DNA of 64,000 bases from a virus: IMG/VR virus record IMGVR_UViG_3300029448_000019, positions 4,155 through 68,154 of that record. The stretch is one strand, 5' to 3'. Positions 20,455 through 45,631 of this stretch are shown here, one piece after another; position 1 is the stretch's first letter, and every line of letters starts with the position of its first letter. Below the pieces are notes generated by a model that was not told the origin of the DNA, did no database searches, and saw nothing but the letters and a program-made list of their open reading frames with translations. The position numbers and the translations under genes were made by a program.

Positions 20455-23400
20455 ATGATTAAAGTATATATTGTTGATGGTGTAGAATACAATGTTTCAC
20501 CAGATAGAGAAGAACAGTTTTTAAAAGATTTTCCAGGCGCTCAATTAGTAGAAGAAGAAAATGTGGAAAAGACAGAACCTGTTGCGGAGACGACTGCACC
20601 TGCAGCGGGGAGAATAGACCCGACAAGTACCCTAAGTACGGGATCGCAGTTGGAAGATGGTTCTTTGGGTTCACAAGATCCAGCTAAAGGTGTTTTTGAA
20701 CAAATATTTGGTAAAGATATTGAAAGACAAGAAACCTACGAAGAACGGGAAGCTAGACAAGAATTAGAATTACAAAATAAAAGACAGCAAGTTCTTAACG
20801 AAAGGGGTATTGATCCTAATACAGGTAACCCAAAAGAGTTATCTTCTGGTGAAAAAATGCTTAATAGCTTTGGAAATATGGTTGATCAAATTCAACAATT
20901 TATACCAAATCTTGTAATTTCAAGTAATAAATTTTATAGAACTATTTTTGGTGATGAGGCGGTAGACGCTTTCGTTGCAAATAAAAGTATTCCTGAATTT
21001 TTTAAAGAAGGCCTGTCTGAAGAAGATTTAGATGAAGCTATACAACAACAGCAATTACAAGAAGCCGAAATGAAAGAAACCGGTCAAATTGTAGAAGGTT
21101 TTAAAGAAGGCGATATTGGAGAGATTGCTGCAGGAATTGTTAATGGTGTTACTTCTATAGGTTCTTCTTTAGCAATAAATTATGTAACCGGAGGAGGTGG
21201 CTTAATACCTGACATGATTGGTAGATCTTATATAAATTATAATGATGCACTAGCTAAAGAAAAAGATAAAACATTATCTGATTTAATTAAAGATAAAGAA
21301 GATGGTGTTTTAGTGCCTGCTACTATTGGCACAATATCTGGTATATTAGAAAGATTACCATTAAAGGGTGCAAATAAAGCTGCAATGAATTTTGCTGTTA
21401 AAGCTGGTGTAAATAAAACTTTATCTTCTGTTCTTATTTCTGGTAGTCAAGAGGGTATTACAGAGCTTACTCAAACTGGTTTAGAAGCTGTAAATGAAGC
21501 TGCGGCAAAGGGGGAAGATAAATCAGAAGCTTTTTTTAATGCTATAGGAAGTCAAGAAGGACTAGAATCTTTTTTACAAGGGTTTGTAGGAGGAGGAGTA
21601 ATTGGTGGAAAAACTAGGAATATTCTTGCCGATAAAAAAGATCTTTTAAAAGCATCTTCTGTTTTAAAATCTAAAGAAATTTCAGACGACATAGATAAAA
21701 ATTTAAATGAATTAGCAGAATTAAGAGAGCAAGAAAAACTTTCAAAAGACAAACAAGTTAAAAATAGCATTAGGAAACAAATAAAAGAAAAAGAAAATAT
21801 TATTAGGGATGCTCAATTAGAACATAATAAGATTCTTAATAATATGACTGAAACTGAAATATATGATGCTTCAAAAATTTCAGATGATATAAATAAAATA
21901 AATAATGATATTGACAATATAAATGCTAAGTTTGATAACGGATTAATTAGTGAGTCAGAAAGAGATCTTGTATTAGAAGGTCTTGAATTAGATTTTCAAA
22001 AAAACCAAGATAAGCTTTTAAAAATAAAAGAAGATTCTATAATAAGAGCTGACGAAAAAATTGAAAAGCAAACTCAAACAGTTAAGGACGACGCTGCTAA
22101 ATTAAGAAAAGAAGGCGTAAAAATTGAAGTTAAAGAATTTGAAAATACTAAAGAAACTGAAGAATATATATTATCTAAGGATAAAAGAAAAACAAAAAAA
22201 TCTAAAATAATAGCTGAGTCTGCAGATGGTACAATATACCAAAATGCTGATGGCTCTCAAGAAATAATAATTAATAAAGAAGTTGCAAGAAAAACTGGGG
22301 CTGTTAATGTTGCGGCGCATGAATTTTTGCATGGAGTATTATATAAAACATTAAAAGATAATCCTGATACAGCTATAAATTTAGGCCAGGCTTTAGCAAA
22401 AGAAATAAATAAAATAGATATTTCAAAAGTAAAAAATTCTACTTTTCTTAGAAGATTACAATTATACAAAGATAAACCAGCTGAAACTAGAGCAGAAGAA
22501 GTTATTGCTTTGTTTGCTGATGCCGTAGCTACTGGTGATATTAAATATAATGAAAATGTATTTACTAAACTTGGTAATGTTATAAGAAGAATATTAGAAA
22601 GATTTGGTGTTAAAAAGAAATTTGATACCGGAAAAGATGTATTTAATTTTATAAAAGATTATAATGCTGATATTTCAAGAGGTGGTGTTAGACAATCTAT
22701 AATACAAGGAGCTAAAGAAGGTTTTAAAGGAAAATTAGTTACTGAACCAACAGGACAAAGTACTGCTACAGAAAAAGAATCTAGATCAAATATAAATAGC
22801 CTTTTAGAATCTTATAAGGGCAATAAGCGTACAATGATTGAGCAAGGGTTTACTAAAACTCCCGCGGGTGAAGAAACGTTTATTCCGTTTGAATCTGAAT
22901 TTGGGCAGTCTATAGGAGGATTAGTTGAAAGCATAACTAAAAGAATATATGATCCTATTCCTGAAGATTTGAAAAAAGGACAAACAAGAGCCGAATTTAG
23001 AAATGATTTAGTTTCTGAAGCGGCTACTGTTATTGATAGAGAATATGATGCTTCAAAACAAGATTTAGGCACATTTATTACTAATAGACTTAATTTAAGG
23101 GCTAATAGAATACAAAAAGATTTAGGTGTTAAGCAAAATATTGAAGCGGATGTTACTGAAGCAAAAAACATAACTACTGAGGCTGTAACTCCTGAAGTAC
23201 AACAGATTAAAAAAATAGCTGAAAGATTAGGCGTGTCTGATAATATTATTGATAAAGCAAAAAAAGCTTTAGATATAGCTATTTTAAATGCGCAAAATAA
23301 ATTAAAAGGTACAGAAAAATTATCAGGTAAAAAAAGAATAGCAATAAGAGATAAAGCAATTAATAGTATTATTGATGGTAAGTTATATAGAGATATACAA

Positions 23401-26400
23401 AATGAATTTGGAAGGAATACAAGCACCTCTAAATCCTTTACAGACTATCTTAATAATAACTTTGAAGCTCTAAGAGATGCTGCTTTAAAACATATTAATT
23501 TTCAGAAGGGCACCGGTGCTGCTTTAAACTGGAATACTAAAGCGCCTAGCAAGCAAGAGTTTATAGATTATTATCTTGCTGAAGGTGAAAAAAAATCTAC
23601 GCGTTCTGATAGAAAAAGAAAGCTGGCTAAAGCTGTGGGGCTTGAAATGTCAGAACAAACAAGAAAAGATTATATAGAAAATAATCCTGTTGAAGCTGAA
23701 AAATTTACTAAAGAAACAGGTATACCTTTAGCGTCGCTAAGTTTTGTTAATGAGTTTGTTCAAGAAAATAATATTCCTGATAAAGAAACTTATGATTTAA
23801 ATTTATCTTTAGATGAAAAAACTTTTAAAGAAAATTTAGCTAAATATATTAAAGATATACAAGAAATTATTAATTTATATAACAGTGGTAAATTAATTAA
23901 TAAGTCTATGGTCCAAGGGTTTTTTACAGCTCAAAAGCCAAAAGACGGAACGCCTGAAGGGAAACTTTTTAATTATGCAAAAGAAGAGCTTAAAAAAATA
24001 AAATATGGTAAAGGTGATGAAGAAATTGAAGGTATAAGTTTATATAGTAAAGAAAAGGTTTCAAATTTTATTAAAAGAGCCTTTACTGCTATAGGGGAAG
24101 GTGATGTTAAAGGTACTGATAGAATTCTTAGTATTTTTAAAAAAGATGCTTTTAAAGATTTAATAAGAGCTTACAATATAAGAAATTCTCAACAAGGACT
24201 ACAGTTTTGGACAAAAGCAAATGAAATATTCCAAGATCCTGAAAATAAAAGATTAGCAACTGCATTTGCTTATTTGACTAGCAGCTCTTTTGAAGAAAGA
24301 TCACATCCACATAGTGTTATGGCGGAATTTACTTTTATTGAAAAAGGAATAAAAGGGCAAAAAACTATTATCGAACATGCTGTTCCTTCTAATTATGCTG
24401 CAAAAATATTATCTAATGCTTTATTTGATAGCCCTGAAAGTTTTTTAAAAACTTTTAAAAATGTAAAAAGCCAGTATAAACAAGGTATTCTTAAAAAATC
24501 TACTGATAAAATTATTAATCAGTTTTCAAAACTTGATATGCCTGATGTGGACGGTAGAGCTTATGATATAAATAAAGATTCTTATATTGTAAGATATACT
24601 TCTGCTATTCCTGACATTAAAGATCAATTAATATGGATTGCCGGTGGTACTAACGACTTTGATGTAAAAACTCCTGCAGAACAAAATAAACTATCAAAAA
24701 GTTTAAGTACAGACTTTAATAGAATATTAGAAGAAGTTAAAGGTGTGCCAACAAGAGAAAGATTTTCTGAAGCAAGAGCAAGTATACTAGGGAAAAAGAA
24801 AAATCCGTTTAAATTCTTTGTGCCTTATTCTGCAGAAGATTATATGGGTCTTATATATCCAACTCTTGGTAAAGGCAAAATTGGTGATAAAAATTTAGAA
24901 TGGTATAAAAAAAATATTATAAACCCGTATGCTAAAGGTATACGTGATTTTGAATCCGATAAACAGTTAGCATTGAAATCATGGGAAGAATTAAAAGCTC
25001 AAATTAAAAATACTCCTGCTAAGTTAAATAAAGAAGCTATAAATGATTTTACTAATGAAAACGCTATTAGAATATATTTATGGGCAAAGCAAGGTGTTGA
25101 TTTTAATGATATAGGTCTTAGTAAAAAAGAAGTTGCTGCTATAAATAGGTATGTTAAAAGTAAACCTGAATTAAAAGATTTTGCAACTCAAATACAATCA
25201 TTAACACCTGATGGTTACCCAGAACCTACTGGCACTGATTGGCTTGGGGGTACTATAACAACTGATTTAGTTAACTATACTAATACTGTTTCAAGAGCAA
25301 AGTATCTTAAAGAATGGCAAAATAATGTTGACATTGTGTATAGCAAAGATAACATGAATAAGCTAAAAGCTATTTATGGTGAAAACTATTCTGATGCATT
25401 ACAAGACATGCTTTATAGAATGAAAACCGGTAGGAATAGACCATCTGGCGGTAATAAATTAACTAATCAATATTTAAACTGGGTTAATGATTCTGTAGGT
25501 ACTATAATGTTTTTTAACATGCGTTCTGCTATGTTACAGACTATCTCATCTGTAAACTATTTAAACTGGACAGACAACAACCCTATAAATGTTGCTAAAA
25601 CTGCAGCAAACCAAAAACAATTTTGGTCTGACTTTTCAGAAATATTTAATTCAGACTTTTTAAAATCAAGAAGATCAGGGTTAAAAACAGATGTAAATGC
25701 AGATGAAATTGCTAGAAGTGCGGAAACATCTAAAAATAAATTTAGAGCTGGACTTTCGGCTTTACTTAAAAAAGGATTTTTACCTACACAAATGGCAGAT
25801 AGTTTTGCAATATCATTTGGTGGTGCATCGTTTTATAGAAATAGAATTAACACATATTTAAAGCAGGGGCTTAATGAAAAAGCTGCTAAAGAAAAAGCAT
25901 TTTTAGATTTTAAAGAAATTACTGAAGAATCACAACAATCGTCAAGGCCTGATAGAGTATCTATGCAGCAAGCAAGCCCATTAGGGCGCGTTATATTAGC
26001 TTTTGCTAATACACCTATGCAATATACTAGATTGACTAAAAAAGCTGCTTTAGATTTGATTAATAATCGTGGTGATTGGAAAACAAATCTTTCTAAACTT
26101 GCATATTATGGGGCTGTTCAAAATATAATTTTTACAGCTTTACAAAGTGCAATGTTTGCAATGTTATTTTCTGATACTGATGACGATGAAGAAAAAGAAA
26201 AAATCGGTCGTATTGGTAATGGTATAGCGGACACCTTACTTAGAGGATCCGGTGTTGCAGGTGCAGCAGTGGCTACCGCTAAAAATATGGTTTTAGAAGC
26301 AATAAGACAATATGAAAGTGGTAGACCTAATTATGAAAAAGTTGCTAATCAAATAACTACATTGTCACCACCTATAAATTCTAAATTAAGAAAATTACAA

Positions 26401-27099
26401 TCAGCAGGTAGAGCATTTACTTTTAAGCAGAATCTTGAAAAAATACGCGAAGAAGGCCCGTTATCAATAGATAATCCTGCATATATGGCAGCAGCAGAAG
26501 TATTATCTGCAACAGCTAATATACCTCTCGATAGAGCTTTACGTAAATTAGAAAATTTAAGGGCATCTGTTGATAGTGATACTGAAATGTGGCAACGTAT
26601 ATCTTTAATGTTAGGCTATAGTAAATGGGATGTTGGTATTATTCAAGAAGAAAGAAAACAAAAAAATATTGACAACGGGTTAAGAAGATATTTTGAAAAG
26701 CAATCTAAAATAAGACCAAATAAAAAAAGAAAAGATCCGGCGTCAACTCTTGGAGGCTCTACTAGACGTAGCTCTAAATCAAGAGATAAAGCTTCAACAC
26801 TTAATAAAGGTTTACCAAATGGTGTTTTAGGTAGAGCAAATAATGATGGCACTATTGAAATAAAATCTGGTTTACCTAAAGCAAAAGAAAAAAAAGTTAT
26901 TGCTCATGAAAAGCAACACATGCGTGATATGAAAGCTGGTAAATTAAATTATGATGATAATTTTGTTTATTGGAATAGCAGTAAATACAAACGAACAAAC
27001 GATAATAAAATAGTTTATAATGGCAAAAAATTTCCTGAAGGGCATTCTAAATTACCATGGGAAGCGGTTGCTAATAAAGCAGAAAGAAAAGTAAGTTAA
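20455..27099 (+). CDS. giant internal virion/ejection polyprotein (two HExxH zincin domains, sigma-like segment)
   Basis: 2214 aa with G/A-rich membrane-like helices. HEFLH at aa 622 with downstream EE; sigma-like aa ~815-940; HEKQH at aa 2151. Confidence 0.7.
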   Translation: MIKVYIVDGVEYNVSPDREEQFLKDFPGAQLVEEENVEKTEPVAETTAPAAGRIDPTSTLSTGSQLEDGSLGSQDPAKGVFEQIFGKDIERQETYEEREARQELELQNKRQQVLNERGIDPNTGNPKELSSGEKMLNSFGNMVDQIQQFIPNLVISSNKFYRTIFGDEAVDAFVANKSIPEFFKEGLSEEDLDEAIQQQQLQEAEMKETGQIVEGFKEGDIGEIAAGIVNGVTSIGSSLAINYVTGGGGLIPDMIGRSYINYNDALAKEKDKTLSDLIKDKEDGVLVPATIGTISGILERLPLKGANKAAMNFAVKAGVNKTLSSVLISGSQEGITELTQTGLEAVNEAAAKGEDKSEAFFNAIGSQEGLESFLQGFVGGGVIGGKTRNILADKKDLLKASSVLKSKEISDDIDKNLNELAELREQEKLSKDKQVKNSIRKQIKEKENIIRDAQLEHNKILNNMTETEIYDASKISDDINKINNDIDNINAKFDNGLISESERDLVLEGLELDFQKNQDKLLKIKEDSIIRADEKIEKQTQTVKDDAAKLRKEGVKIEVKEFENTKETEEYILSKDKRKTKKSKIIAESADGTIYQNADGSQEIIINKEVARKTGAVNVAAHEFLHGVLYKTLKDNPDTAINLGQALAKEINKIDISKVKNSTFLRRLQLYKDKPAETRAEEVIALFADAVATGDIKYNENVFTKLGNVIRRILERFGVKKKFDTGKDVFNFIKDYNADISRGGVRQSIIQGAKEGFKGKLVTEPTGQSTATEKESRSNINSLLESYKGNKRTMIEQGFTKTPAGEETFIPFESEFGQSIGGLVESITKRIYDPIPEDLKKGQTRAEFRNDLVSEAATVIDREYDASKQDLGTFITNRLNLRANRIQKDLGVKQNIEADVTEAKNITTEAVTPEVQQIKKIAERLGVSDNIIDKAKKALDIAILNAQNKLKGTEKLSGKKRIAIRDKAINSIIDGKLYRDIQNEFGRNTSTSKSFTDYLNNNFEALRDAALKHINFQKGTGAALNWNTKAPSKQEFIDYYLAEGEKKSTRSDRKRKLAKAVGLEMSEQTRKDYIENNPVEAEKFTKETGIPLASLSFVNEFVQENNIPDKETYDLNLSLDEKTFKENLAKYIKDIQEIINLYNSGKLINKSMVQGFFTAQKPKDGTPEGKLFNYAKEELKKIKYGKGDEEIEGISLYSKEKVSNFIKRAFTAIGEGDVKGTDRILSIFKKDAFKDLIRAYNIRNSQQGLQFWTKANEIFQDPENKRLATAFAYLTSSSFEERSHPHSVMAEFTFIEKGIKGQKTIIEHAVPSNYAAKILSNALFDSPESFLKTFKNVKSQYKQGILKKSTDKIINQFSKLDMPDVDGRAYDINKDSYIVRYTSAIPDIKDQLIWIAGGTNDFDVKTPAEQNKLSKSLSTDFNRILEEVKGVPTRERFSEARASILGKKKNPFKFFVPYSAEDYMGLIYPTLGKGKIGDKNLEWYKKNIINPYAKGIRDFESDKQLALKSWEELKAQIKNTPAKLNKEAINDFTNENAIRIYLWAKQGVDFNDIGLSKKEVAAINRYVKSKPELKDFATQIQSLTPDGYPEPTGTDWLGGTITTDLVNYTNTVSRAKYLKEWQNNVDIVYSKDNMNKLKAIYGENYSDALQDMLYRMKTGRNRPSGGNKLTNQYLNWVNDSVGTIMFFNMRSAMLQTISSVNYLNWTDNNPINVAKTAANQKQFWSDFSEIFNSDFLKSRRSGLKTDVNADEIARSAETSKNKFRAGLSALLKKGFLPTQMADSFAISFGGASFYRNRINTYLKQGLNEKAAKEKAFLDFKEITEESQQSSRPDRVSMQQASPLGRVILAFANTPMQYTRLTKKAALDLINNRGDWKTNLSKLAYYGAVQNIIFTALQSAMFAMLFSDTDDDEEKEKIGRIGNGIADTLLRGSGVAGAAVATAKNMVLEAIRQYESGRPNYEKVANQITTLSPPINSKLRKLQSAGRAFTFKQNLEKIREEGPLSIDNPAYMAAAEVLSATANIPLDRALRKLENLRASVDSDTEMWQRISLMLGYSKWDVGIIQEERKQKNIDNGLRRYFEKQSKIRPNKKRKDPASTLGGSTRRSSKSRDKASTLNKGLPNGVLGRANNDGTIEIKSGLPKAKEKKVIAHEKQHMRDMKAGKLNYDDNFVYWNSSKYKRTNDNKIVYNGKKFPEGHSKLPWEAVANKAERKVS

Positions 27100-27117: not shown

Positions 27118-28203
27118 ATGGCAAGAGTTAGTGCTAGTGAAAGAAGAAAAGCTAGAAATAAAAGATTATCAAGGGTGCCTATTGGGGGAGGCCAAGGTAA
27201 TAGAATAGGGAAAAAAAGGAGAGAGAAAGCTGCGGCGGCTAAAAAAGCAGCAGCTGAAAAAGCAGCGGCTAAAAAGGCGGCTGATTTAGCTAAAAATTTT
27301 GCAAAAAATCCTGCAGGAACTACAGTTGAATCACAACTTAAATATTTTTCTGATCCAGAAAATAGAAAAAAAGTAGCGGATGCGGTAAGTTTAATGACAG
27401 GTAAAAAATCTTCTAAGCCTACATCTAGTGGCGGAGGAGGTACAGCTAGTAGTGGGGGAGGGACGGCCCCTAAAAATAACAAAGGAAAAATAACAAAAAT
27501 TAATGGTGCACAAGTTGATTATAAAAAAATCTTTAGTGATTATGCAAATGCAGAAGCGCGACAAGAAAAAAGTAAAAAAGATGCACAAGCTAAAGTAGAT
27601 GCACTTTCTAATAAAAAAGAAGCTGCTACTAAACCTGAATCTTTAACTGCTGCTGATAAAAGAAGAAGAAGAAGAGAGAATAGAGTATCAGAAAGAAGAA
27701 TGCTAAGAGGTATTAGAAAAGATGATAAAAGTGTAACTGATTATACACAAGGAGAATTAAATGCATTTAAACAAGCAGAAATAGATAAAATTAAAAAAAG
27801 AAGAACTGGTAGAAACCAATATCTTAGAAACTTTGCGACTCAATTAGCAAGAGGAGAACAAGCTAGGCGACCCGGTGAAAAATATGAAGGGAATTATAAA
27901 GAGGGTGATAATTTTGGACAAAAAGGTGGTTCAAAAGAAAATGTAGCTGAAACAGCACAAACTGAAGAAACTGTAGCACAAAATAAAGAAAAATTAAATA
28001 CACAATCTAATACAAATGATTTTACTAATACTTTTTTAGGGTCAACAAATTTTGCACAAAAAGAGTTTAATATAGGTCCAGAATTTGATCCTTTAAATAT
28101 TAATACTAATTTAACTTCTAGCTTTAATAAAGGTATTGCAACAGAAGACTCTACACCTCAGTCTGCAATGAGAAAGTTATATAATAAAAAAAGGGGCTTT
28201 TAA
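27118..28203 (+). CDS. basic low-complexity protein, last gene of the + arm
   Basis: 361 aa, K/R/A-rich with KKAAAEKAAAKK histone-H1-like repeats. Confidence 0.55.
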   Translation: MARVSASERRKARNKRLSRVPIGGGQGNRIGKKRREKAAAAKKAAAEKAAAKKAADLAKNFAKNPAGTTVESQLKYFSDPENRKKVADAVSLMTGKKSSKPTSSGGGGTASSGGGTAPKNNKGKITKINGAQVDYKKIFSDYANAEARQEKSKKDAQAKVDALSNKKEAATKPESLTAADKRRRRRENRVSERRMLRGIRKDDKSVTDYTQGELNAFKQAEIDKIKKRRTGRNQYLRNFATQLARGEQARRPGEKYEGNYKEGDNFGQKGGSKENVAETAQTEETVAQNKEKLNTQSNTNDFTNTFLGSTNFAQKEFNIGPEFDPLNINTNLTSSFNKGIATEDSTPQSAMRKLYNKKRGF

Positions 28204-28213
28204 CGGCCCCCTT
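28186..28213 (-). terminator. terminator at convergence of the two arms
   Basis: GGGGC/GCCCC stem flanked by an A-run (U-tract on the - strand), between converging stops at 28203 and 28218. Confidence 0.55.
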
Positions 28214-39251: not shown

Positions 39252-39330
39252 TTATTTTATAATTAACATAAATTCCATTTCTATAATAAGTAATAATACC
39301 ATCACCTATTACGTATTCTGTGTTTTCATC

Positions 39331-39367
39331 TATACTATCACGTTCTTTCATATTTTGTAACGTACTT
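39331..39367 (-). promoter_or_regulatory. phage promoter copy (AAGTACGTTAC-N15-GTGATAGTATA)
   Basis: Conserved bipartite motif upstream of the ERF/replication operon. Confidence 0.75.
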
Positions 39368-39821
39368 ACTTAAGTAAATCGTAGATAATACCTTTCTTTT
39401 TAAATAATCTACGATGCTTAATATCATGTGTCTTACCAAATATGGTGAATGCATCATTGTTTGATTCAACGTTTTTATAAATTTTTTTTTCAGTATTAAC
39501 ATTTTTACCTGATAATCTGTCTGTTTTAATAGCAATATATTTAGAGCCGGACACGGCTTTAACATGACTTGCAGTATAATTAGGGTTTTTAAAATTAAGA
39601 TTTTGATCCTTATGAGAGGATTCAGAATTATCTCTTCTTATATATTGCATCTCATCTATAATAGACGGTACTAATTGATATTTAGTTTTAAATTTATTCA
39701 TAAAGTACATAATAATTATAGTGCAAAATATAATATTTGGGACATTAATCACGATAAATTTGTAAATGTTTTTCTGCAAAGTTATGGACTTCTGATGAAC
39801 TGCGTATATCGTGTATAGCAA
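39366..39821 (-). CDS. hypothetical protein (true start probably near 39701)
   Basis: ORF downstream of the sigma gene; the annotated 5' part overlaps sigma. Confidence 0.45.
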   Translation of the reverse strand: MLYTIYAVHQKSITLQKNIYKFIVINVPNIIFCTIIIMYFMNKFKTKYQLVPSIIDEMQYIRRDNSESSHKDQNLNFKNPNYTASHVKAVSGSKYIAIKTDRLSGKNVNTEKKIYKNVESNNDAFTIFGKTHDIKHRRLFKKKGIIYDLLK

Positions 39822-40527
39822 CGAAATGTGCTAACTCTTTGAGTGCCTGCATGTTATTTTTTATTTTTATTAATAATCTTTGTTTTTGTTTTTTTACATT
39901 TTCCATTGGCATACTAAAAAATTTTGCTATCTCTGCTATCTTCTTAGGTTTGGAATAAATATCATCAATACCATATAACATCTTTAACATTAAATGATAT
40001 TTAGGTAAATGCTTTCTGGCCCATTCATTTATATACTCACTTAATATTTCATAATCATATTCATATATTTCTTCTTCAACCATATTAATTATATCAGTAT
40101 CAAACCATTGAGGAAACAAAGCTGTAATATAACCAAATCCTCCGGATATTCTTTTCTTTTCTTTATTATCCCATATACCTTTAACAGGTAGATTAACACC
40201 GTCTGCATCTTTTTTAATACGATCTCTTACAATACCCGTAATACTTTTTTTAAGATATTTAGATAAAGCTTTTTGTTTATCAACTTTATTTTTTATATCA
40301 TTTATAATAGGCCATTTAATATTACGCCATGATATAAGTAAAGCCAAATAACCTTCCTGAGTTAAATCATTAAGGTCTAGTACACCAATTGCATTGTATT
40401 CTTTAGAAAAACTATTAGCAATATTAGATGCCATTTTATAATATTCAATAGGTATTTCATGTTGAGGTAAATGCAATGCAGTGTCCTGCATATTTAAAGA
40501 ATATATTTTTTTATTAAAATTTTTCAT
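39745..40527 (-). CDS. sigma70-family RNA polymerase sigma factor
   Basis: Region 2 DLNDLTQEGYLAL..LSKYLKKSITGIVRDRI; region 4 LKMLYGI..KIAEIAKFFSMPMENVKKQKQRLL. Confidence 0.8.
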   Translation of the reverse strand: MKNFNKKIYSLNMQDTALHLPQHEIPIEYYKMASNIANSFSKEYNAIGVLDLNDLTQEGYLALLISWRNIKWPIINDIKNKVDKQKALSKYLKKSITGIVRDRIKKDADGVNLPVKGIWDNKEKKRISGGFGYITALFPQWFDTDIINMVEEEIYEYDYEILSEYINEWARKHLPKYHLMLKMLYGIDDIYSKPKKIAEIAKFFSMPMENVKKQKQRLLIKIKNNMQALKELAHFVAIHDIRSSSEVHNFAEKHLQIYRD

Positions 40528-40928: not shown

Positions 40929-41147
40929 TCATGCAAAGTTATATTGTTTTTTAATTTTATGATTAAAGAATTTGCCAATAGATTCACTGTATTTCATAGA
41001 AATAAATGTATCTGATGGTACTTTAAAATACATATATTCTTTACCATAATTAAACTTAACTGTTAATGTGTTAAGGTCATAATCATATACCATATGATTT
41101 ATTGCTTGCGAATCGACTTCTAATTTTTCTGTAATATATTTTCTCAT
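40929..41147 (-). CDS. KTSC domain protein
   Basis: SQAI..YD...LTVKF..G..Y.Y..VP.......S.GKFFN. Confidence 0.8.
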   Translation of the reverse strand: MRKYITEKLEVDSQAINHMVYDYDLNTLTVKFNYGKEYMYFKVPSDTFISMKYSESIGKFFNHKIKKQYNFA

Positions 41148-41151
41148 AATT

Positions 41152-41490
41152 TTAATTTATTAATTTTAATTTAACATTTTTCCATTTACCATATTTCATT
41201 TCTTTATTAACTAAGAAATCAATACGCATATCCCAGCGTTTATTCATTCTATCTTGCACCTGCCATTCGCCATCCATATCAGCACCAGCACCTTCAACTA
41301 ATACACAAGCACCAAACGTAAAGCCAAGTGCTTCTAAATCGCGCGAAACAGCTATCCATCTGTGTTTTGCAGGATTTATACTATCTATAACTTGATTAGA
41401 TGCAGTTATAAATGGTGTTGAGTCTGTTTGTTTAGGATCAGCATGATATATTGTGGCTGTTACTAAAATTGTGTATAGCAATATTTTCAT
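41152..41490 (-). CDS. 3D-domain (MltA-like) cell-wall hydrolase
   Basis: TATIY..QTDSTPFITAS, IAVSRDL, VQDRM, RIDF. Confidence 0.75.
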   Translation of the reverse strand: MKILLYTILVTATIYHADPKQTDSTPFITASNQVIDSINPAKHRWIAVSRDLEALGFTFGACVLVEGAGADMDGEWQVQDRMNKRWDMRIDFLVNKEMKYGKWKNVKLKLIN

Positions 41491-41777
41491 AATTTATCTA
41501 TTTCTTTTTTTATTTTTTCGTATATTTCTTTAAGCTCAACTAATAATTCATACTTTTCATCTTCTAATAACTCTTGCCATTTTTCATCAAGCTGTTGTAA
41601 TTGAGCAAGTAATATATCTTTTTTACTTACATGCTTAACATTACCAAATATGTCAATTGAATGATGAAATTCTTCAGGTGTTGCTGCTTGGTATCTTTCA
41701 GCTATTCGCTTATCAAACTCATCCATAATTTTTTGAGTTATAAGTTCTGCTAATTGTTCCAATTGATCTTGTGTCAT
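41487..41777 (-). CDS. hypothetical protein (UvrB/C-like coiled-coil end)
   Basis: EDEKYELL..LKE helix hairpin. Confidence 0.45.
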   Translation of the reverse strand: MTQDQLEQLAELITQKIMDEFDKRIAERYQAATPEEFHHSIDIFGNVKHVSKKDILLAQLQQLDEKWQELLEDEKYELLVELKEIYEKIKKEIDKL

Positions 41778-42031
41778 ATTGTTGTAAGTTTTTCGGCCAT
41801 ATAAACAGAATATGGTGTACCAAATCCGTGATCAATTAATTTAGCTATTTTATTCCACACCCTTAAATCTCGTATAGAACCTTTAACACTAATATAATGT
41901 AGTTCAGGGTATCTTTGATTGTGTCTTGTTCTAAATTCATTTCTTAATTGTAATCTATAATGTGCAATTTTAGCAATAAGCATAGATTCAATACGACCAT
42001 CAATATATTCGTTATCAAACTTGTTTTTCAT
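41774..42031 (-). CDS. hypothetical early protein
   Basis: Co-oriented, coupled ORF. Confidence 0.5.
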   Translation of the reverse strand: MKNKFDNEYIDGRIESMLIAKIAHYRLQLRNEFRTRHNQRYPELHYISVKGSIRDLRVWNKIAKLIDHGFGTPYSVYMAEKLTTI

Positions 42032-42153
42032 ATTGTAAATTTTTAATATAATTTTCAGCTAATGTTTTATTATCAAAATCCTCATAGCCACCCCTAAGTC
42101 CTTTATTATCAGACCATAACACACGAAATTGATTATTAATTGTTTGTTTTATT

Positions 42154-42483
42154 TTAGTCTTCATCTTCGTCAATATTATAATTATCTTCAAGCCATTCTT
42201 TAATCTCGTCTTCAGGCAATCTTTCTTCAAGATCAGCTATATATACTATTGCACCACCGTTTTTTGATACTTCATCTAATCTATATAAAATATCTTCAGC
42301 GCTTGGTTCATAATAATATACATCATTTTCCCAATCAATATTACTAGGATCGTTTGTCATAACATATATATCATAGTTATCAGCTGTATAATATGTGCTT
42401 ACTTCTAAGTCATACGCACTTAATTTATAATCTTGCTCAATTGTAATATTAAGTTTTTCTTCTAATAATTTGTAATAATTCAT
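42154..42483 (-). CDS. acidic hypothetical early protein
   Basis: D/E/Y-rich, 109 aa. Confidence 0.55.
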   Translation of the reverse strand: MNYYKLLEEKLNITIEQDYKLSAYDLEVSTYYTADNYDIYVMTNDPSNIDWENDVYYYEPSAEDILYRLDEVSKNGGAIVYIADLEERLPEDEIKEWLEDNYNIDEDED

Positions 42484-42518
42484 TTGTTTTTAATTTAAAA
42501 TTAATATGTGTATAGCAA

Positions 42519-42746
42519 TTATGCTTCTACTGTTTCAGCTTCAACATTTATATTATCTACTTTGTTAATATTTTCATATACTTTAATAGTTAAGTATTTA
42601 ATAATGTCATCAGCTTCAAAGCCGTCTTTTAATAGTTGAGGAATTATTTTATCAAATGCATATCTTATTTGCCATTCAGCATCTGATACTGTTTCAACTC
42701 TGTCAATTAATGTTTTAATTTCTAAGTAATCTTGTAAGTTTTTCAT
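42519..42746 (-). CDS. hypothetical early protein
   Basis: Starts 16 nt downstream of a promoter motif. Confidence 0.6.
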   Translation of the reverse strand: MKNLQDYLEIKTLIDRVETVSDAEWQIRYAFDKIIPQLLKDGFEADDIIKYLTIKVYENINKVDNINVEAETVEA

Positions 42747-42761
42747 TTTATTTTATTTTAT

Positions 42762-42798
42762 TATATTATCACTATTAGTTTTGTTTTGTAACGTACTT
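42762..42798 (-). promoter_or_regulatory. phage promoter copy (AAGTACGTTAC-N15-GTGATAATATA)
   Basis: Exact motif; nearest copy upstream of the sigma gene. Confidence 0.8.
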
Positions 42799-43260
42799 CT
42801 TATCATTTATTATATCATTAAGTTTTGTTCTTAACGTATTAGAATATTTATATTCCATTTGTTCAAGCTTACTAATACATTCTTTAGTATAATTATAAAG
42901 CTTTTTGTTTTGTAATAATTTAACTCTATATTTATTTCTATAAAATTTATCAGGGTCATAGCTTTTAACTTCTAATGATATTTTAGTTTTTATATGATCT
43001 TTTATATTTAAATAAACATCAAACAATTCTTTTTCCCAAAAGTTATCGATTATATTATTAAATATTTTAAGGCCATGTAATACAGTAGCATGATCTTTAT
43101 TAACATGCTTTCCAATTGCATCTAATGATTCACTTGTAAAATCTTTACAAAGTTTATAATATATACTTCTTATATAAACAATTTCTCGTTTACGTGATTC
43201 TACATCTATAAAAGTATTAAATGCACTCTCCACTGCTTCTTTAATTATTTTACTATTCAT
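42775..43260 (-). CDS. DnaA domain IV (C-terminal HTH)-like DNA-binding protein
   Basis: SRKREIVYIR.I..KL...T..SLDAIGKHVNKDHATVLHG. Confidence 0.8.
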   Translation of the reverse strand: MNSKIIKEAVESAFNTFIDVESRKREIVYIRSIYYKLCKDFTSESLDAIGKHVNKDHATVLHGLKIFNNIIDNFWEKELFDVYLNIKDHIKTKISLEVKSYDPDKFYRNKYRVKLLQNKKLYNYTKECISKLEQMEYKYSNTLRTKLNDIINDKKYVTKQN

Positions 43261-43404
43261 TTTCTTTCCACCATTTTATATTATCTTCAGGACGATATTC
43301 ACTTTCGTTCCTTTTATGTTTTTTACCTTCGCTTGCTCTAGGAATTCTAAAGCCTACAACTGGGTTGATACCTAGATCCCACCAATTATCTGGTAATTTT
43401 TTTG

Positions 43405-43593
43405 TCATAATGTTTCTTTTAATTTTTTAATTAATTTATATTTAATATCTGATATTGTTTCATTAAAATAATCGTCTTCTAATTCTTCAATGTCAGTTCC
43501 GTCTATTTCCCACAATATCATGCGGTCAATACCTACATTTACAACTTTAACTAAGTTGTTTGCAATTTCATCTAAGTCACTTGTTTTGTTCAT
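43405..43593 (-). CDS. hypothetical early protein
   Basis: Co-oriented small ORF. Confidence 0.5.
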   Translation of the reverse strand: MNKTSDLDEIANNLVKVVNVGIDRMILWEIDGTDIEELEDDYFNETISDIKYKLIKKLKETL

Positions 43594-43787
43594 ACGATTT
43601 CAAGGTTAAGTTCTTGCGCTACATAGTTAATGTGCTTAGAAGTTGTTGGGCTTGATGTCATACCATATACATTCCATTTAAGTTTGTATAATTTGCCATC
43701 TTTAATTTCAGCAACATGAGTATCATATGAATATATGTCGTTGCCAATTTGTTTTAAGTTTACTTTATATTTGTCAAATGTTTTCAT
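43590..43787 (-). CDS. hypothetical early protein
   Basis: SYDTHVA...SPTTSKHINY motif. Confidence 0.6.
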   Translation of the reverse strand: MKTFDKYKVNLKQIGNDIYSYDTHVAEIKDGKLYKLKWNVYGMTSSPTTSKHINYVAQELNLEIV

Positions 43788-44131
43788 GTTATTTTATTTT
43801 ATGTTAAAACATATTTTATTATATATTTTTATTAATTCTTCTATTTGTTTTGTTGATTTTACATTACGATTTTTTTCATCAATTAAAAAGTTTTCAAGTG
43901 ATACTAGAATAATTAAATTTTGGTTGTGTGTTAATTTTTTCATTTTATTTATATTCTTGTATTAATTTATTTATATCTTTTAAGTTTGAAAAATGATAAT
44001 GGTATATAACTTCTTTTTTATAGTTAAATACTGTAAAATCATACATTTTAAATTTTGGTGAATAATATATTTGAAATGATGTTTGTGATTTTGGTTTGTT
44101 GTTAAAGTATTTATTCATGTTGTTATTTTAA

Positions 44132-44168
44132 TATATTATCACATTATAATTTAATTTGTAACGTACTT
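44132..44168 (-). promoter_or_regulatory. phage promoter copy
   Basis: AAGTACGTTAC-N15-GTGATAATATA; ATG at 44118. Confidence 0.8.
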
Positions 44169-44492
44169 ATCCTATTAATTCTAATTGTTTTTTAATTTGT
44201 TTTAAAGCTTTGTGACTTGCTTTTGCATTTTGCCAAATGGCATAATCTGGGCCGAATGTTTCTAGTAAATGTATAGCAACTTTTGCCGTTAATAACATTT
44301 TATTTGCTTCTTTACTTGTTATTTCTTTTGTCATATCTTTTATTTTTTTTATCGTCTAAATACATTTTATAATCTTGTAGAACTAAAGCAAATTCTTTGT
44401 TTAAATCTTTTAAATCATAATCAAATGATGAGGTTTTCATCCAGTGTGCGATAGATTCTAATGTTTCGATTGCTGTTTCTTTATGTGTCATA

Positions 44493-44690
44493 TTATTTAT
44501 TTAGGTTTTGAAATCTATAATGTTTTATTGTATTTAAACTTGCTTTAGTAAATTGATCTACACGCTTTTTATATTGTTTATCTAAGCAATATTTTTTTAT
44601 TGCTCTAGATTTAGTACATTCACCATACTTTTTTTCAAATTCTTCAATTTGTTTTAACTTATCATTAATCATTTGCTTTGTTAATTTCAT
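44493..44690 (-). CDS. hypothetical early protein
   Basis: Co-oriented small ORF. Confidence 0.5.
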   Translation of the reverse strand: MKLTKQMINDKLKQIEEFEKKYGECTKSRAIKKYCLDKQYKKRVDQFTKASLNTIKHYRFQNLNK

Positions 44691-44872
44691 AATTTTATAT
44701 TATTTACTGATTCTTTTATTCTATTTAATTCATTTTCAAAATATGATTTGATTGGTTTTGATTCAAAATGATCGGAATATAATTTTAAGTTTGATACAAT
44801 ACCTTCTATTCTTCCAAGCATTTTTGCATTTTCCATATTTATTTCTAATCTTTCTATATAATCTTTATTCAT
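44687..44872 (-). CDS. hypothetical early protein
   Basis: Co-oriented small ORF. Confidence 0.5.
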   Translation of the reverse strand: MNKDYIERLEINMENAKMLGRIEGIVSNLKLYSDHFESKPIKSYFENELNRIKESVNNIKL

Positions 44873-45056
44873 AATTATTCATATTTAATATTTCATCTGT
44901 TTTATTTACTATTATATTTCTTATATGTTCTCTGTGTCTATAGTCTAAACTATCAAATCCGTCACAGTCAAATGTATTTTTACTTAATTCATGTAATAAT
45001 ACTCCAAGTTCAAGGTAAAATCTTTTTGTCATTTTATTATATTTTATTTATTTTAT

Positions 45057-45093
45057 TATATTATCACTTTAATATTTATTTTGTGACGTACTT
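45057..45093 (-). promoter_or_regulatory. phage promoter copy
   Basis: AAGTACGTCAC-N15-GTGATAATATA; ATG at 45032. Confidence 0.8.
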
Positions 45094-45105
45094 ATTTTTT
45101 TATTA

Positions 45106-45327
45106 TTATAAATTATTTAATATAGTTTCAGTTATATTTTTTTTGTTTATAAAAGAAAAACCTTTTAAATTAAATTCTATTATATTTGGATTTTTGTGAT
45201 AAAATTTAAAGTTTAATAAATCTGTTAATTTAAATCCAATATAATTTGATTTTAACAGGGTTAATTTTTTATGTGAAATTGTTTTAGATTTATAATGATT
45301 TGTTGATAAGTTTTTTAAATTTGACAT
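45106..45327 (-). CDS. hypothetical early protein
   Basis: Single gene between two promoter copies. Confidence 0.55.
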   Translation of the reverse strand: MSNLKNLSTNHYKSKTISHKKLTLLKSNYIGFKLTDLLNFKFYHKNPNIIEFNLKGFSFINKKNITETILNNL

Positions 45328-45352
45328 TTTATATATTTTTATTAGTTACATT

Positions 45353-45389
45353 TATATTATCACTTTTATTTTTATTTTGTGACGTACTT
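45353..45389 (-). promoter_or_regulatory. phage promoter copy
   Basis: AAGTACGTCAC-N15-GTGATAATATA; ATG at 45327. Confidence 0.8.
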
Positions 45390-45391
45390 TT

Positions 45392-45568
45392 TTATTTATT
45401 TAATTTTATAATTTCATTTTCACAAATTTCTATTTCATTTTTTATTTTATTAATATGTTCTATTTTATTAGTGTTTTTAAATTTATTAAATTGTTTTAAC
45501 ATTTCTTTTTTTCTAGAATTATAAAATTTTATTTTATTTTCTTTTGTAAATGTATTTGGAAATCTCAT
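45392..45568 (-). CDS. first gene of the early arm (58 aa)
   Basis: Translated by hand: MRFPNTFTKENKIKFYNSRKK...; lies between two promoter copies. Confidence 0.5.
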   Translation of the reverse strand: MRFPNTFTKENKIKFYNSRKKEMLKQFNKFKNTNKIEHINKIKNEIEICENEIIKLNK

Positions 45569-45594
45569 ATTTATTATTTTTAATTAGTTACATT

Positions 45595-45631
45595 TATATT
45601 ATCACATTATAATAGGATTTGTAACGTACTT
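45595..45631 (-). promoter_or_regulatory. phage promoter copy
   Basis: AAGTACGTTAC-N15-GTGATAATATA; ATG at 45568. Confidence 0.8.

What the first reader, a model, noticed from the sequence alone, without database searches (positions are those of the whole stretch)
20455..45631. Candidate system: virion-delivered sigma factor driving a private class of early promoters
Seen in sequence: (i) the whole early arm, including the stand-alone sigma gene (39745-40527), lies downstream of a six-copy promoter motif; (ii) no phage RNA polymerase is recognisable; (iii) the 2214-aa ejection protein contains a sigma70-like segment about 200 aa after an HExxH peptidase motif. Established knowledge: the Bacteroidota housekeeping promoter is TTTG(-33)/TAnnTTTG(-7), which this motif does not match. 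N4 and crAss-like phages start early transcription by injecting an entire RNAP. Inference: this phage injects only a sigma domain, possibly released by its own zincin, that redirects host core RNAP to the early promoters, while the second, expressed sigma serves later genes or amplifies early transcription. This would explain how a sigma gene behind non-host promoters gets expressed. I do not know of a described example.
Basis: partly seen in the sequence, partly recalled or inferred. Interest (0 to 1): 0.85.

Follow-up and report, generated by a model that had tools for sequence, protein, structure and literature searches.

The report
Sigma-like module in phage ejection protein
An uncultured marine phage of flavobacteria drives its early genes from private promoters, encodes its own sigma factor, and carries a sigma-like domain inside a giant virion protein, which may be how it starts transcription.

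Summary
The window is 64 kb of a 68,154-bp uncultured marine podophage. Its terminase relatives all infect Bacteroidota.

The promoter motif is real. There are six exactly spaced copies of GTACGTYACAAA-N13-TGATAAT plus one variant, all on the minus strand, with 0 expected by chance. Eight related phage records carry arrays built on the same GATAATATA box, with upstream elements that differ by lineage.

The stand-alone gene at 39745-40527 is a genuine sigma-70-family factor with regions 2 and 4.

The 2214-aa protein sits where Cellulophaga phage phi40:1 has a virion protein confirmed by mass spectrometry. It has an invariant HExxH...E zincin. Residues about 775-895 fold like sigma region 2:
- In two AlphaFold models, the top 12 structural matches of the domain-only model are all sigma rows, but Z is only 7.5.
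- In a protein-language-model search, 21 of 30 hits fall in Sigma70_r2 clusters.
- No HMM or profile method detects the similarity, and no region 4 was found.
- Co-folding with flavobacterial beta' gave only weak support.

The complete stand-alone sigma is the likelier reader of the bipartite promoters. The injected sigma-2-like module is a plausible but unproven starter. I found no described sigma-like domain in polyvalent or ejection proteins.

The parts
20455..27099 (+). P0001, a 2214-aa giant virion (polyvalent / ejection-type) protein
   Evidence: ORF. A search with residues 560-1200 found 377 homologues of 1217-3875 aa in metagenomes. It occupies the same position as phi40:1 gp101, a 1691-aa structural protein confirmed by MS/MS. 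The language-model neighbours of its C-terminal part include clusters with LPD39, LPD38 and LPD1 (a lead only).
22177..22749 (+). Zincin metallopeptidase (MPTase) domain, about aa 575-765, with HExxH at aa 622-626 and a third ligand Glu682
   Evidence: H622, E623, H626 and E682 are invariant in 53 sequences. Peptidase_M78 matches 3 of 28 family fragments (best E 1.8e-4) and SprT-like matches 1 of 28. The layout fits the polyvalent-protein MPTase described in PMC5512222 (passages read).
22789..23133 (+). Sigma region-2-like helical domain, about aa 779-893, flanked by low-confidence linkers (aa 766-778 and 892-918)
   Evidence: Two AlphaFold2 models were made (pLDDT 74.4 and 79.7). In the structural search of PDB representatives, the top 12 rows and 29 of 50 rows are sigma factors or chain F of initiation complexes. 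The best is SigB 8x6g_H (Z 7.5, rmsd 2.6, 86 aligned residues). In ESM Atlas, 21 of 30 named hits fall in the Sigma70_r2 set. There is no HMM support.
24652..26604 (+). Conserved C-terminal module of P0001 (about aa 1400-2050) with hydrophobic helices; function unknown
   Evidence: It is covered by 105-114 of 119 homologues in BLASTP. It has no Pfam, PHROG or NCBIfam match.
26905..26919 (+). Second HExxH (HEKQH, aa 2151-2155) near the C-terminus
   Evidence: Found. The family consensus keeps HEKxH.
39745..40527 (-). P0002, a stand-alone sigma-70-family factor (260 aa, regions 2 and 4)
   Evidence: phrog_351 E 2.8e-7. TIGR02937 E 1.7e-9 at 37.5 bits, below the 42.9 cut-off. The family profile hits only sigma chains in PDB: 34 hits for region 4, best 6.1e-5. 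With the wider family there are 54 hits, best SigA 3.3e-10 over region 2 to 3.0.
45600..45629 (-). Early promoter copy 1 (GTACGTTACAAA-N13-TGATAATATA)
45358..45387 (-). Early promoter copy 2
45062..45091 (-). Early promoter copy 3
44137..44166 (-). Early promoter copy 4
42767..42796 (-). Early promoter copy 5, the nearest copy upstream of the sigma gene
39336..39365 (-). Promoter copy 6, downstream of the sigma gene and ahead of the Erf/exonuclease/primase genes; its -10 box reads GATAGTATA
45911..45937 (-). Variant seventh copy (GTACGTCGCAAA-N10-TGATAGT) inside the divergent intergenic region
45640..46112 (.). AT-rich, 470-bp divergent intergenic region between the early (-) arm and the rightward (+) arm. 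It holds two plus-strand TGATAATA boxes (45742, 45857).
28190..28213 (.). Two-way terminator-like hairpin where the + arm and the - arm converge

Best explanation
This is the early-transcription system of an uncultured marine podophage of Flavobacteriia, related to Pervagoviridae.

Shown:
- The leftward early and DNA-metabolism arm is served by a phage-specific bipartite promoter class. It combines a GATAATATA -10-like box with a lineage-specific upstream element, here AAGTACGTYACAAA.
- The phage encodes a complete sigma-70-family factor, P0002.
- The giant structural-module protein P0001 carries a zincin peptidase followed by a domain with a sigma region-2 fold between flexible linkers.

Inferred:
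- P0002 is the main reader of these promoters, with region 2 on the GATAATATA box and region 4 on the upstream element.
- Every copy of its gene lies behind such promoters, so something present at time zero must prime the loop.
- The most likely primer is the sigma-2-like module of P0001. It would be ejected with the DNA and possibly cut free by its own peptidase. It would dock on the beta' clamp helices of host core RNA polymerase as sigma region 2 does.
- That would give a first low level of transcription from the -10 box, much as T4 gp55 works from a -10 element alone. P0002 would then be made and amplify early transcription.
For: Promoters:
- 7 copies against 0 expected, all on the minus strand.
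- Arrays of the same box on the sigma-gene strand occur in G027 (6), G011 (4), G014 (6, one on the other strand), G007 (3), G023 (14), G009 (2) and G001 (4). Shuffles give a mean of at most 0.2.
- In G023 one copy sits about 30 nt upstream of the sigma gene.

Host is Bacteroidota:
- TerL relatives are 87 records: 86 phages of Flavobacterium, Cellulophaga, Tenacibaculum or Maribacter and 1 uncultured.
- The cellular RNR hits at 42-44% identity are all Bacteroidota.
- No full TTTG-N17-21-TAnnTTTG lies on the sense strand of the early arm.

P0002 is a sigma factor. It occurs in 6 of 7 related records that are at least 90% complete. The stretch aligned with sigma region 2.3-2.4 is alike in both sigma clades, while the C-terminal part differs as the upstream element does (by eye).

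P0001 is a virion protein by synteny with MS/MS-verified phi40:1 gp097-gp101. Its zincin residues are invariant.

Sigma-2-like fold: best Z 7.5, rmsd 2.6, 86 aligned; 29 of 50 rows; 21 of 30 hits in the Sigma70_r2 set, scores 0.94-0.95. The domain occurs in 238 representative proteins, nearly all 1000-3600 aa. Linkers with pLDDT below 50 flank it.

Co-fold with RPOC_FLAJ1 residues 150-480 gave 'weak support':
- Score 0.49 (runs 0.49, 0.57, 0.47); best of 3 controls 0.01.
- The mark was reached by 58 of 80 solved complexes and 2 of 110 mismatched pairs.
- A pass at 0.60 or under came from only 7 of those 80 solved complexes and from both mismatches that passed.
- The runs agree in at least 75% of contacts, and the partner's pLDDT is at least 76.
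- Sigma-beta' complexes are solved, so the pass may reflect likeness to them.
Against: No sequence method detects sigma in P0001:
- Pfam on the whole protein finds nothing at E up to 1.
- No Sigma70 family is among the 25 of 44 families shown for the 28 family fragments.
- Sigma70_r2 and Sigma70_r4_2 searched in six frames over the genome do not hit P0001.
- NCBIfam finds nothing.
- Three PDB profile searches find no sigma (phmmer).
- hhalign against the phage's own sigma family gives probabilities of 0.3%, 0.08% and 0.9%.
- Foldseek against PDB and BFVD finds nothing at E up to 0.001.

Other points against:
- Z of 7.5 is in the range the tool warns is common for helical bundles.
- The two models share much of their alignment, so they are not independent.
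- No sigma region 4 match was seen for aa 920-1095.
- The HTH-looking stretch (IAERLGVS...) is not conserved in the family consensus.
- The D-L-x-x-E signature of region 2.2 and the melting aromatics are not conserved among close relatives (by eye).
- Virion location rests on synteny only. hhalign to phi40:1 gp101 gives probability 29% over 25 columns.
- Cleavage by the zincin, RNA polymerase binding and promoter use are all untested.
Confidence: 0.3

Rival explanations
1. P0002 alone reads the private promoters. The loop is primed by leaky or non-consensus host transcription through the 470-bp upstream region, or by P0002 molecules packed in the virion. The sigma-2-like module of P0001 still targets host RNA polymerase but for another purpose. 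It could compete with host sigma-A for the beta' clamp helices (host shut-off), or tether polymerase at the entry channel to couple transcription with DNA entry.
For: - P0002 is a complete sigma factor with regions 2 and 4.
- The promoters are bipartite with fixed spacing.
- P0002 and this promoter type co-occur in relatives.
- The P0001 domain lacks region 4 and the melting aromatics.
- A near-consensus host-like element (TTTG-N20-TA-GGT-TTTG) lies on the minus strand at about 46067-46110. I read this by eye, and it has one extra base in the -7 box.
- In G023, which has terminal repeats, promoters lie within 500 bp of an end and point inward. That layout fits transcription-driven DNA entry.
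Against: - No full host-type promoter lies on the sense strand of the early arm, here or consistently in 9 relatives.
- In phiEco32-type phages the sigma gene has its own host sigma-70 promoter (PMC4281155, passages read). Nothing comparable is seen here.
- There is no evidence that P0002 is packaged.
Confidence: 0.25
2. The sigma-2 resemblance has no transcriptional meaning. The segment is a helical bundle that serves the structure or unfolding of the ejection protein, and it resembles sigma region 2 by convergence or very old common descent.
For: - All HMM and profile methods are negative.
- Z is at most 7.6, within the range the tool calls common for helical proteins.
- Unrelated helical proteins such as the SRI domain and MCM score Z 5-5.5 in the same lists.
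- Shared language-model features are low, 113-130 of 256.
- The co-fold gave only weak support.
Against: - Sigma entries fill the top 12 rows and 29 of 50 rows, rather than a mixture of folds.
- A method that uses no structure also ranks Sigma70_r2 clusters first, 21 of 30 hits.
- The only hhalign alignment to the phage sigma family is in the expected register for regions 2.1-2.4, although it is not significant.
- The domain is kept next to the zincin across a family of 238 representatives.
Confidence: 0.25
3. The injected P0001 domain is the early sigma for the six promoters, and P0002 serves a different, later promoter class.
For: - Known phage sigma factors usually serve middle or late genes (established knowledge: SPO1 gp28, T4 gp55; phiEco32 gp36 in PMC4281155).
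- The structural and language-model evidence for a sigma-2 fold.
- T4 gp55 is a precedent for a region-2-only sigma, and its complex (7d7d_F) ranks second at Z 6.8 with 92 aligned residues.
Against: - No separate late promoter motif was found. The plus-strand candidates at 45742, 45857 and 1765 carry the same TGATAATA box.
- A single sigma-2-like domain does not explain the conserved, exactly spaced upstream element.
- The upstream element changes along with the stand-alone sigma clade.
Confidence: 0.1
4. Host holoenzyme reads these promoters directly, because the host is not a typical Bacteroidota or uses an alternative host sigma factor. Neither phage sigma-like element would then be needed for early transcription.
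For: The motif scans as a sigma-70-like GTYACA-N16-GATAAT with 9 of 12 matches. The host is inferred, not known.
Against: All TerL relatives with a known host infect Bacteroidota. The cellular RNR relatives are all Bacteroidota. The Bacteroidota consensus (recalled) is not matched. A phage that keeps a private sigma factor and private promoters in 6 of 7 near-complete relatives is unlikely to rely on host sigma alone.
Confidence: 0.05

Closest known systems
Phage-type polyvalent proteins with a zincin MPTase hub, including N4 virion RNA polymerase (Iyer et al. 2017, PMC5512222)
   Same: A giant multidomain protein in the structural module. It has an HExxH...E metallopeptidase that those authors propose processes the protein after delivery. 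Its cargo acts in the first minutes of infection. In N4 the cargo is transcription machinery.
   Different: No polymerase domain is recognisable here. The cargo next to the peptidase looks like sigma region 2. The word 'sigma' occurs 0 times in the main text of that paper, and its supplements could not be read. No Pfam LPD model hits P0001. The LPD link is only a language-model lead.
T4 gp55, the late sigma factor consisting essentially of a region-2-like domain
   Same: A very divergent sigma-2-only protein that binds the beta' clamp helices and reads a -10-type element alone (established knowledge). The T4 gp45-dependent activation complex chain 7d7d_F is the second-best structural match (Z 6.8, rmsd 3.1, 92 aligned).
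   Different: gp55 is a free protein made during infection for late genes. Here the domain is embedded in a 2214-aa virion protein and would act at time zero. There is no sequence similarity. That chain F is gp55 is my inference from the entry title.
Stand-alone phage sigma factors: phiEco32/SU10 gp36, SPO1 gp28
   Same: P0002 is a small sigma-70-family protein encoded by a podophage, and it redirects host core polymerase to phage promoters.
   Different: In SU10 and phiEco32 the sigma gene has its own host sigma-70 promoter, and early genes use host promoters (PMC4281155, passages read). Here the sigma gene and the earliest genes lie behind the private promoters.
Podovirus ejection proteins (T7 gp14-16) and transcription-driven genome entry
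   Same: Large internal virion proteins are encoded after the tail genes. Early promoters lie near a genome end and point inward in G023.
   Different: There is no sequence or fold link to gp16. The T7 early promoters are host promoters.

Membership tests
Sigma-70 family (P0002, stand-alone gene) | Region 2 (core binding and -10 recognition) detectable by family profiles | tested here: met
   The wider family profile A5 hits SigA/RpoD region 2 to 3.0 at 3.3e-10, and all 54 PDB hits are sigma factors. TIGR02937 gives E 1.7e-9 but 37.5 bits, below the 42.9 cut-off. Pfam Sigma70_r2 gives only E 0.062, below cut-off.
Sigma-70 family (P0002, stand-alone gene) | Region 4 helix-turn-helix | tested here: met
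   The A2 profile gives 34 PDB hits at E up to 1. All are sigma region 4, and the best is 1tty at 6.1e-5.
Sigma-70 family (P0002, stand-alone gene) | Binds core polymerase and directs initiation at specific promoters | not testable with these tools
   This needs in vitro transcription.
Sigma-70 family (P0001 aa 775-895) | Region 2 fold | tested here: met
   The structural search gives top rows SigB (Z 7.5), the T4 gp45-dependent complex chain F (6.8), pro-sigmaK (6.3), AlgU (6.3) and so on. Sigma rows make up 29 of 50, and the 641-aa model gives the same picture. The Z values are middling, and the models are predictions.
Sigma-70 family (P0001 aa 775-895) | Match to curated sequence models (Pfam Sigma70_r2 or ECF, NCBIfam) | tested here: not met
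   No hit was found (none among the 25 of 44 families shown for 28 fragments). hhalign to the phage sigma family gives probability of at most 0.9%. The only sequence-derived support is ESM Atlas, with 21 of 30 hits in the Sigma70_r2 set (a lead).
Sigma-70 family (P0001 aa 775-895) | Region 4 (or 3) domain downstream | tested here: inconclusive
   No sigma-4 rows appear for aa 920-1095, but that part was barely tested by the search. Sigma70_r4_2 finds nothing in the genome. The HTH-like stretch is not conserved.
Sigma-70 family (P0001 aa 775-895) | Conserved aromatic and basic residues of regions 2.3-2.4 for -10 melting | tested here: not met
   The sequence reads FITNRLNLRANRI with no Trp or Tyr pair. 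Only one basic residue (R882) is broadly kept. The residues expected are recalled from E. coli sigma-70.
Sigma-70 family (P0001 aa 775-895) | Binding to the beta' clamp helices | tested here: inconclusive
   Co-fold verdict 'weak support': score 0.49 against a best control of 0.01 (with the calibration counts given in the For line).
Phage polyvalent proteins (Iyer 2017) | Giant multidomain protein with a zincin MPTase (HExxH in one helix, Glu in the next) | tested here: met
   H622, E623, H626 and E682 are invariant in 53 sequences. The architecture is conserved in 27 loci.
Phage polyvalent proteins (Iyer 2017) | Recognised LPD or other catalogued domains | tested here: inconclusive
   No Pfam LPD hit. 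ESM Atlas neighbours carry LPD39 (63% of members), LPD38 (100%) and LPD1 (98%) at scores of 0.90-0.93.
Phage polyvalent proteins (Iyer 2017) | Packaged in the virion and delivered with the DNA | not testable with these tools
   Only synteny with MS/MS-verified phi40:1 gp101 is available.
Virion RNA polymerases (N4-like, crAss-like) | A polymerase catalytic domain | tested here: inconclusive
   No Pfam, PHROG or NCBIfam polymerase hit in P0001 or the other large ORFs. Very divergent polymerases escape such searches, and most of P0001 was not folded.
Bacteroidota housekeeping promoters | -33 TTTG and -7 TAnnTTTG (consensus recalled from memory) | tested here: not met
   The motif copies contain neither element. 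TAnnTTTG is not enriched in the window, with 97 found against 111 expected. No full bipartite match lies on the sense strand of the early arm.

The most novel reading that the evidence does not exclude
A large family of marine flavobacterial podophages does not inject a polymerase. It injects only a sigma region-2 module, embedded in a self-processing polyvalent ejection protein. That module captures host core RNA polymerase at the entering DNA end and fires a private promoter class before any phage protein is made. A second, complete phage sigma factor then locks in a positive-feedback loop. This would be a third way, beside host promoters and injected polymerases, for a phage to start its programme.
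Probability: 0.2. Interest if true: 0.88.

Novelty: new variant of a known kind. Interest (0 to 1): 0.66.

Why it matters
**The open problem.** Phages of Bacteroidota face a host whose promoters differ from those of other bacteria. How phages without their own polymerase start transcription there is largely unknown.

**What is new here.**
- A whole uncultured group places its earliest genes and its own sigma gene behind private promoters. The domain family has 238 representative clusters, and the stand-alone sigma has 134 homologues.
- That layout poses a genuine bootstrap problem.
- A sigma-2-like module inside a virion-delivered, peptidase-bearing giant protein is a concrete and testable answer.
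- It would add sigma-like RNA-polymerase-capture domains to the known cargo of polyvalent proteins.

**What follows either way.**
- The GATAATATA promoter family, with its lineage-specific upstream elements and matching sigma clades, is a natural system for studying how sigma factors and promoters evolve together.
- It is also a possible source of orthogonal promoter and sigma pairs for Bacteroidota genetics.

Tried and rejected
**Searches with P0001 and P0002**
- Nucleotide and protein searches of both against cultured phages found nothing. The canonical sigma of a relative also found nothing.
- P0001 has no hit in Pfam, PHROGs, NCBIfam or the PDB sequences.
- Foldseek of both models against PDB, and of the second against BFVD, found nothing at E up to 0.001. 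A WhiG complex and a few phage sigma factors appear among the non-significant rows.
- Profile searches of A1 and A6 against PDB returned no sigma. A designed repeat protein at 7.9e-6 is a low-complexity match.
- hhalign of the P0001 family against the phage sigma family is not significant.
- Ten short hits of the domain profile were scanned for Pfam sigma families to look for bridging sequences. None of the 10 matched. Only the best 150 of 238 hits were listed, so the weak tail was not seen.
- hhalign of the family against phi40:1 gp101 gave probability 29% over 25 columns, which I did not accept.

**Promoter work**
- The repeated word GCTATACA looked like a second motif. It lies inside coding sequence and encodes Ala-Ile-His in small early proteins.
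- A scan for host-type promoters found no consistent site at the head of the early arm.
- I could not fix which hexamers act as -35 and -10. The distance from the upstream element to the box differs between lineages.
- A covariation test between upstream-element class and either sigma-like protein could not discriminate. Both proteins diverge along the same lineages.

**Expression data**
- RNA libraries of three studies hold contigs of the early arm. They are contigs only, with no strand, start or level, and DNA carry-over is possible. This is no evidence on timing.

**Other limits**
- No tRNA was found.
- G001 is 97% complete and lacks a P0002 homologue. Its promoter array runs into the contig end, so the absence is uninformative.
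- Supplementary files of the papers were not read. Those of PMC5512222 list domain architectures that might include this family.
- 'Not in print' rests on three full-text searches (listings and abstracts only). It also rests on term look-ups in PMC5512222 (0 occurrences of 'sigma'), PMC7824862 and PMC4281155 (passages only).

Full report
**What the window is.** The window is bases 4155-68154 of a 68,154-bp IMG/VR virus record that CheckV rates as complete. The genome has three arms.
- A plus-strand structural arm runs from 1 to 28203. It holds the large terminase, portal, virion proteins, a 1477-aa structural protein and the 2214-aa protein P0001.
- A minus-strand arm runs from 28434 to about 45600. 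It holds ribonucleotide reductase, thymidylate synthase, MazG, primase/helicase, an exonuclease, Erf, the sigma gene and many tiny ORFs.
- A plus-strand arm starts at about 46113. It holds GroEL and tail fibres.

The end of the contig repeats the start of the fibre gene found at the beginning of the record. The two plus arms are therefore one arm on a circular map.

The host is most likely a member of the Flavobacteriia. The terminase has 87 relatives among cultured-phage records. Of these, 86 infect Flavobacterium, Cellulophaga, Tenacibaculum or Maribacter, and 1 is uncultured. The cellular relatives of the reductase found at 42-44% identity are all Bacteroidota.

**The promoter motif.** GTACGTYRCAAA-N(8-20)-TGATA occurs 7 times, always on the minus strand, against 0.00 expected. 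Six copies have identical spacing. The seventh (45911) is shorter and lies in the 470-bp divergent region. The copies end 13-26 nt before start codons. A consensus scan reads them as GTYACA-N16-GATAAT. They do not contain the Bacteroidota elements TTTG and TAnnTTTG (consensus recalled from memory). TAnnTTTG is not enriched in the window (97 found, 111 expected). No full bipartite host-type site lies on the sense strand of the early arm.

Five regular copies precede the sigma gene. One follows it and heads the recombination and replication genes.

**The same design recurs in relatives.** I fetched ten related virus records that encode a homologue of P0001. Eight of them show arrays built on an invariant GATAATATA box with a lineage-specific upstream element.
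- G010, the nearest relative and a fragment, has one copy of the window's type, found only with looser patterns.
- G023, G009, G001, G007, G014 and G011 have TTACAAAnnAAAYACGA-N9-GATAATATA. The counts are 14, 2, 4, 3, 6 and 4.
- G027 has GGTTRACACGA-N9-TTGATAATATA, with 6 copies.
- Shuffles give a mean of at most 0.2 per genome, and all copies but one lie on the strand of the sigma gene.
- G026 and G002 gave none, and their early regions are cut by contig ends.
- In G023, which has terminal repeats, one copy sits about 30 nt upstream of the sigma gene and others lie within 500 bp of both ends.

**The stand-alone sigma.** P0002 matches phrog_351 (E 2.8e-7). It matches the sigma-70 superfamily model TIGR02937 at E 1.7e-9, which is below that model's cut-off. 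A profile of its close family hits only sigma region 4 in the PDB (34 hits, best 6.1e-5).

Relatives in six of seven near-complete records carry a collinear and more canonical sigma (DLIQEG..., RIPEHKLNEIRK). A joint profile hits SigA/RpoD from region 2 to 3.0 at 3.3e-10, and all 54 hits are sigma factors. By eye, the stretch that aligns with regions 2.3-2.4 is similar in both clades. The C-terminal part differs, as does the upstream promoter element. This agrees with the stand-alone sigma reading the promoters but does not prove it.

**The giant protein P0001.**
- It has no Pfam, PHROG, NCBIfam or PDB sequence hit. A search with residues 560-1200 found 377 homologues of 1217-3875 aa in marine metagenomes.
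- H622, E623, H626 and E682 are invariant in 53 sequences, which is a gluzincin signature. A few family members touch Peptidase_M78 or SprT-like models.
- In Cellulophaga phage phi40:1 the homologue of the 1477-aa protein is followed by gp098-gp101. gp101 is 1691 aa long and is annotated as a structural protein from MS/MS. P0001 holds the same position, but there is no accepted sequence similarity.
- Language-model neighbours of the C-terminal 815 residues include clusters with the polyvalent-protein domains LPD39, LPD38 and LPD1 (a lead only).
- The description of zincin MPTases as the hub domain of injected polyvalent proteins, possibly releasing other domains after delivery, fits this protein (PMC5512222, passages read).

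**The sigma-like segment: evidence for.** Two AlphaFold2 models were built from family alignments, one of aa 560-1200 (pLDDT 74.4) and one of aa 775-1095 (79.7).
- In an exhaustive structural comparison with 48,161 PDB representatives, residues 775-895 match sigma region 2. For the second model the top 12 rows are all sigma rows. They are SigB (Z 7.5, rmsd 2.6, 86 aligned), the T4 gp45-dependent complex chain F, pro-sigmaK, AlgU, an M. tuberculosis initiation complex chain F, SigI6, SigE, sigma-28, SigW, sigma-70, sigma-32 and SigA.
- Overall 29 of 50 rows are sigma rows. The titles of 23 name a sigma factor. Six are chain F of initiation complexes, which I infer to be sigma.
- The match to E. 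coli sigma-70 covers its residues 377-446, which I take from memory to be regions 2.1-2.4.
- A method that uses no structure agrees. ESM Atlas features of aa 775-900 place 21 of 30 named hits in clusters carrying Sigma70_r2, with scores of 0.94-0.95 but low shared-feature counts.
- The domain lies between two stretches with pLDDT below 50. It occurs in 238 representative proteins, nearly all of them giants.

**The sigma-like segment: evidence against.**
- Z values are below 8, and the tool warns that this is common for helical folds.
- The two models share much of their alignment.
- Foldseek finds nothing significant.
- No HMM or profile method finds sigma.
- hhalign against the phage's own sigma family gives at best one alignment in the right register, with probability 0.9%.
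- No region 4 was detected.
- The HTH-looking stretch after the domain is not conserved.
- The region 2.2 signature and the melting aromatics are not kept among relatives.
- Co-folding the domain with residues 150-480 of Flavobacterium johnsoniae beta' gave 'weak support', with score 0.49 against 0.01 for the best control. By the tool's calibration, a pass at this level is more often wrong than right unless the pairing was already likely. It may also reflect memory of solved sigma-beta' complexes.

**How it most likely works.** The facts that need explaining are these.
- The earliest genes and the sigma gene itself lie behind private promoters.
- No polymerase gene is recognisable.
- A complete phage sigma factor is present.
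- A sigma-2-like domain sits beside a peptidase in a protein that is probably ejected with the DNA.

My reading, at about 0.3, is a starter-and-amplifier scheme. The delivered sigma-2-like module docks on host core polymerase and gives a first, weak initiation from the GATAATATA box, much as T4 gp55 works from a -10 element alone. The complete sigma P0002 is then made and reads both promoter elements.

The rivals are:
- P0002 alone, with leaky or packaged priming, while the module serves host shut-off or DNA entry (0.25).
- The resemblance is structural only (0.25).
- Host holoenzyme reads the promoters (0.05).

Only biochemistry or infection experiments can decide between them.

**Novelty.** Three full-text searches and look-ups in the polyvalent-protein paper, the jumbo-phage comparative paper and the SU10 paper turned up no sigma-like domain in an ejection or polyvalent protein and no virion-delivered sigma. 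In SU10 and phiEco32 the sigma gene has a host promoter of its own, unlike here. I class the finding as a new variant of a known kind: delivered early-phase effectors and delivered transcription machinery. It is of substantial interest, but it rests on predicted structure and language-model similarity rather than on any significant sequence match.

Noticed in passing
window 42519-42746 (-): A 75-aa early ORF directly behind promoter copy 5 gets two weak hits to sigma region 2.1-2.2 models. Pfam Sigma70_r2 gives E 0.0068 in the genome-wide search, and NCBIfam PRK11924 gives E 0.0057. It could be a mini sigma-like or RNA-polymerase-binding peptide, or chance.
   Followed up: partly
window 33911, 39820, 41480, 42517, 44278 (-); also G027 (L057) 209-5614 (+): The word GCTATACA recurs on the coding strand of the early arm, here and in a distant relative. 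It encodes Ala-Ile-His inside several small early proteins and the sigma C-terminus. This suggests a shared short protein motif or paralogous family, not a promoter.
   Followed up: partly
window 63240-64000 and genome 1-890 (L137): The open ORF at the contig end begins with the same N-terminal sequence as the 1541-aa fibre gene at the contig start. The last 70 nt recur at genome 821-890. This is either an imperfect terminal overlap, meaning a circularly permuted assembly, or two fibre paralogues.
   Followed up: partly
window 45742-45749, 45857-45864, 1765-1772 (+): TGATAATA boxes occur on the plus strand in the divergent region and ahead of the GroES-like and terminase genes. They lack the GTACGTYACAAA element and are candidate rightward or late promoters sharing the same -10 box.
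   Followed up: no
window 48639-50216, 50213-50467, 1733-2311 (+): The phage encodes a GroEL (phrog_5725, E 3.7e-125) and a 192-aa GroES-like protein (phrog_13932, E 9.4e-26).
   Followed up: no
window 42775-43260 (-): A 161-aa early protein carries a DnaA C-terminal helix-turn-helix (Bac_DnaA_C, E 3.8e-12, above cut-off).
   Followed up: no
window 26905-26919 (+), P0001 aa 2151-2155: A second HExxH (HEKQH) lies behind a basic linker at the extreme C-terminus. It is kept as HEKxH in the family consensus.
   Followed up: no
L090/L091 (CBDICL010000005.1, 117,301 bp): A contig binned with a Flavobacteriaceae MAG holds two copies of an 88%-identical reductase gene 65,129 bp apart. It looks like a head-to-tail dimer of a related phage genome. 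Many other high-identity hits sit on short contigs binned into unrelated MAGs.
   Followed up: no
window 39000-46200: Contigs from RNA libraries of three studies cover much of the early arm and close variants of it. Fourteen DNA runs from five studies hold at least 72% of its sampled words, so the phage is widespread in marine samples.
   Followed up: partly
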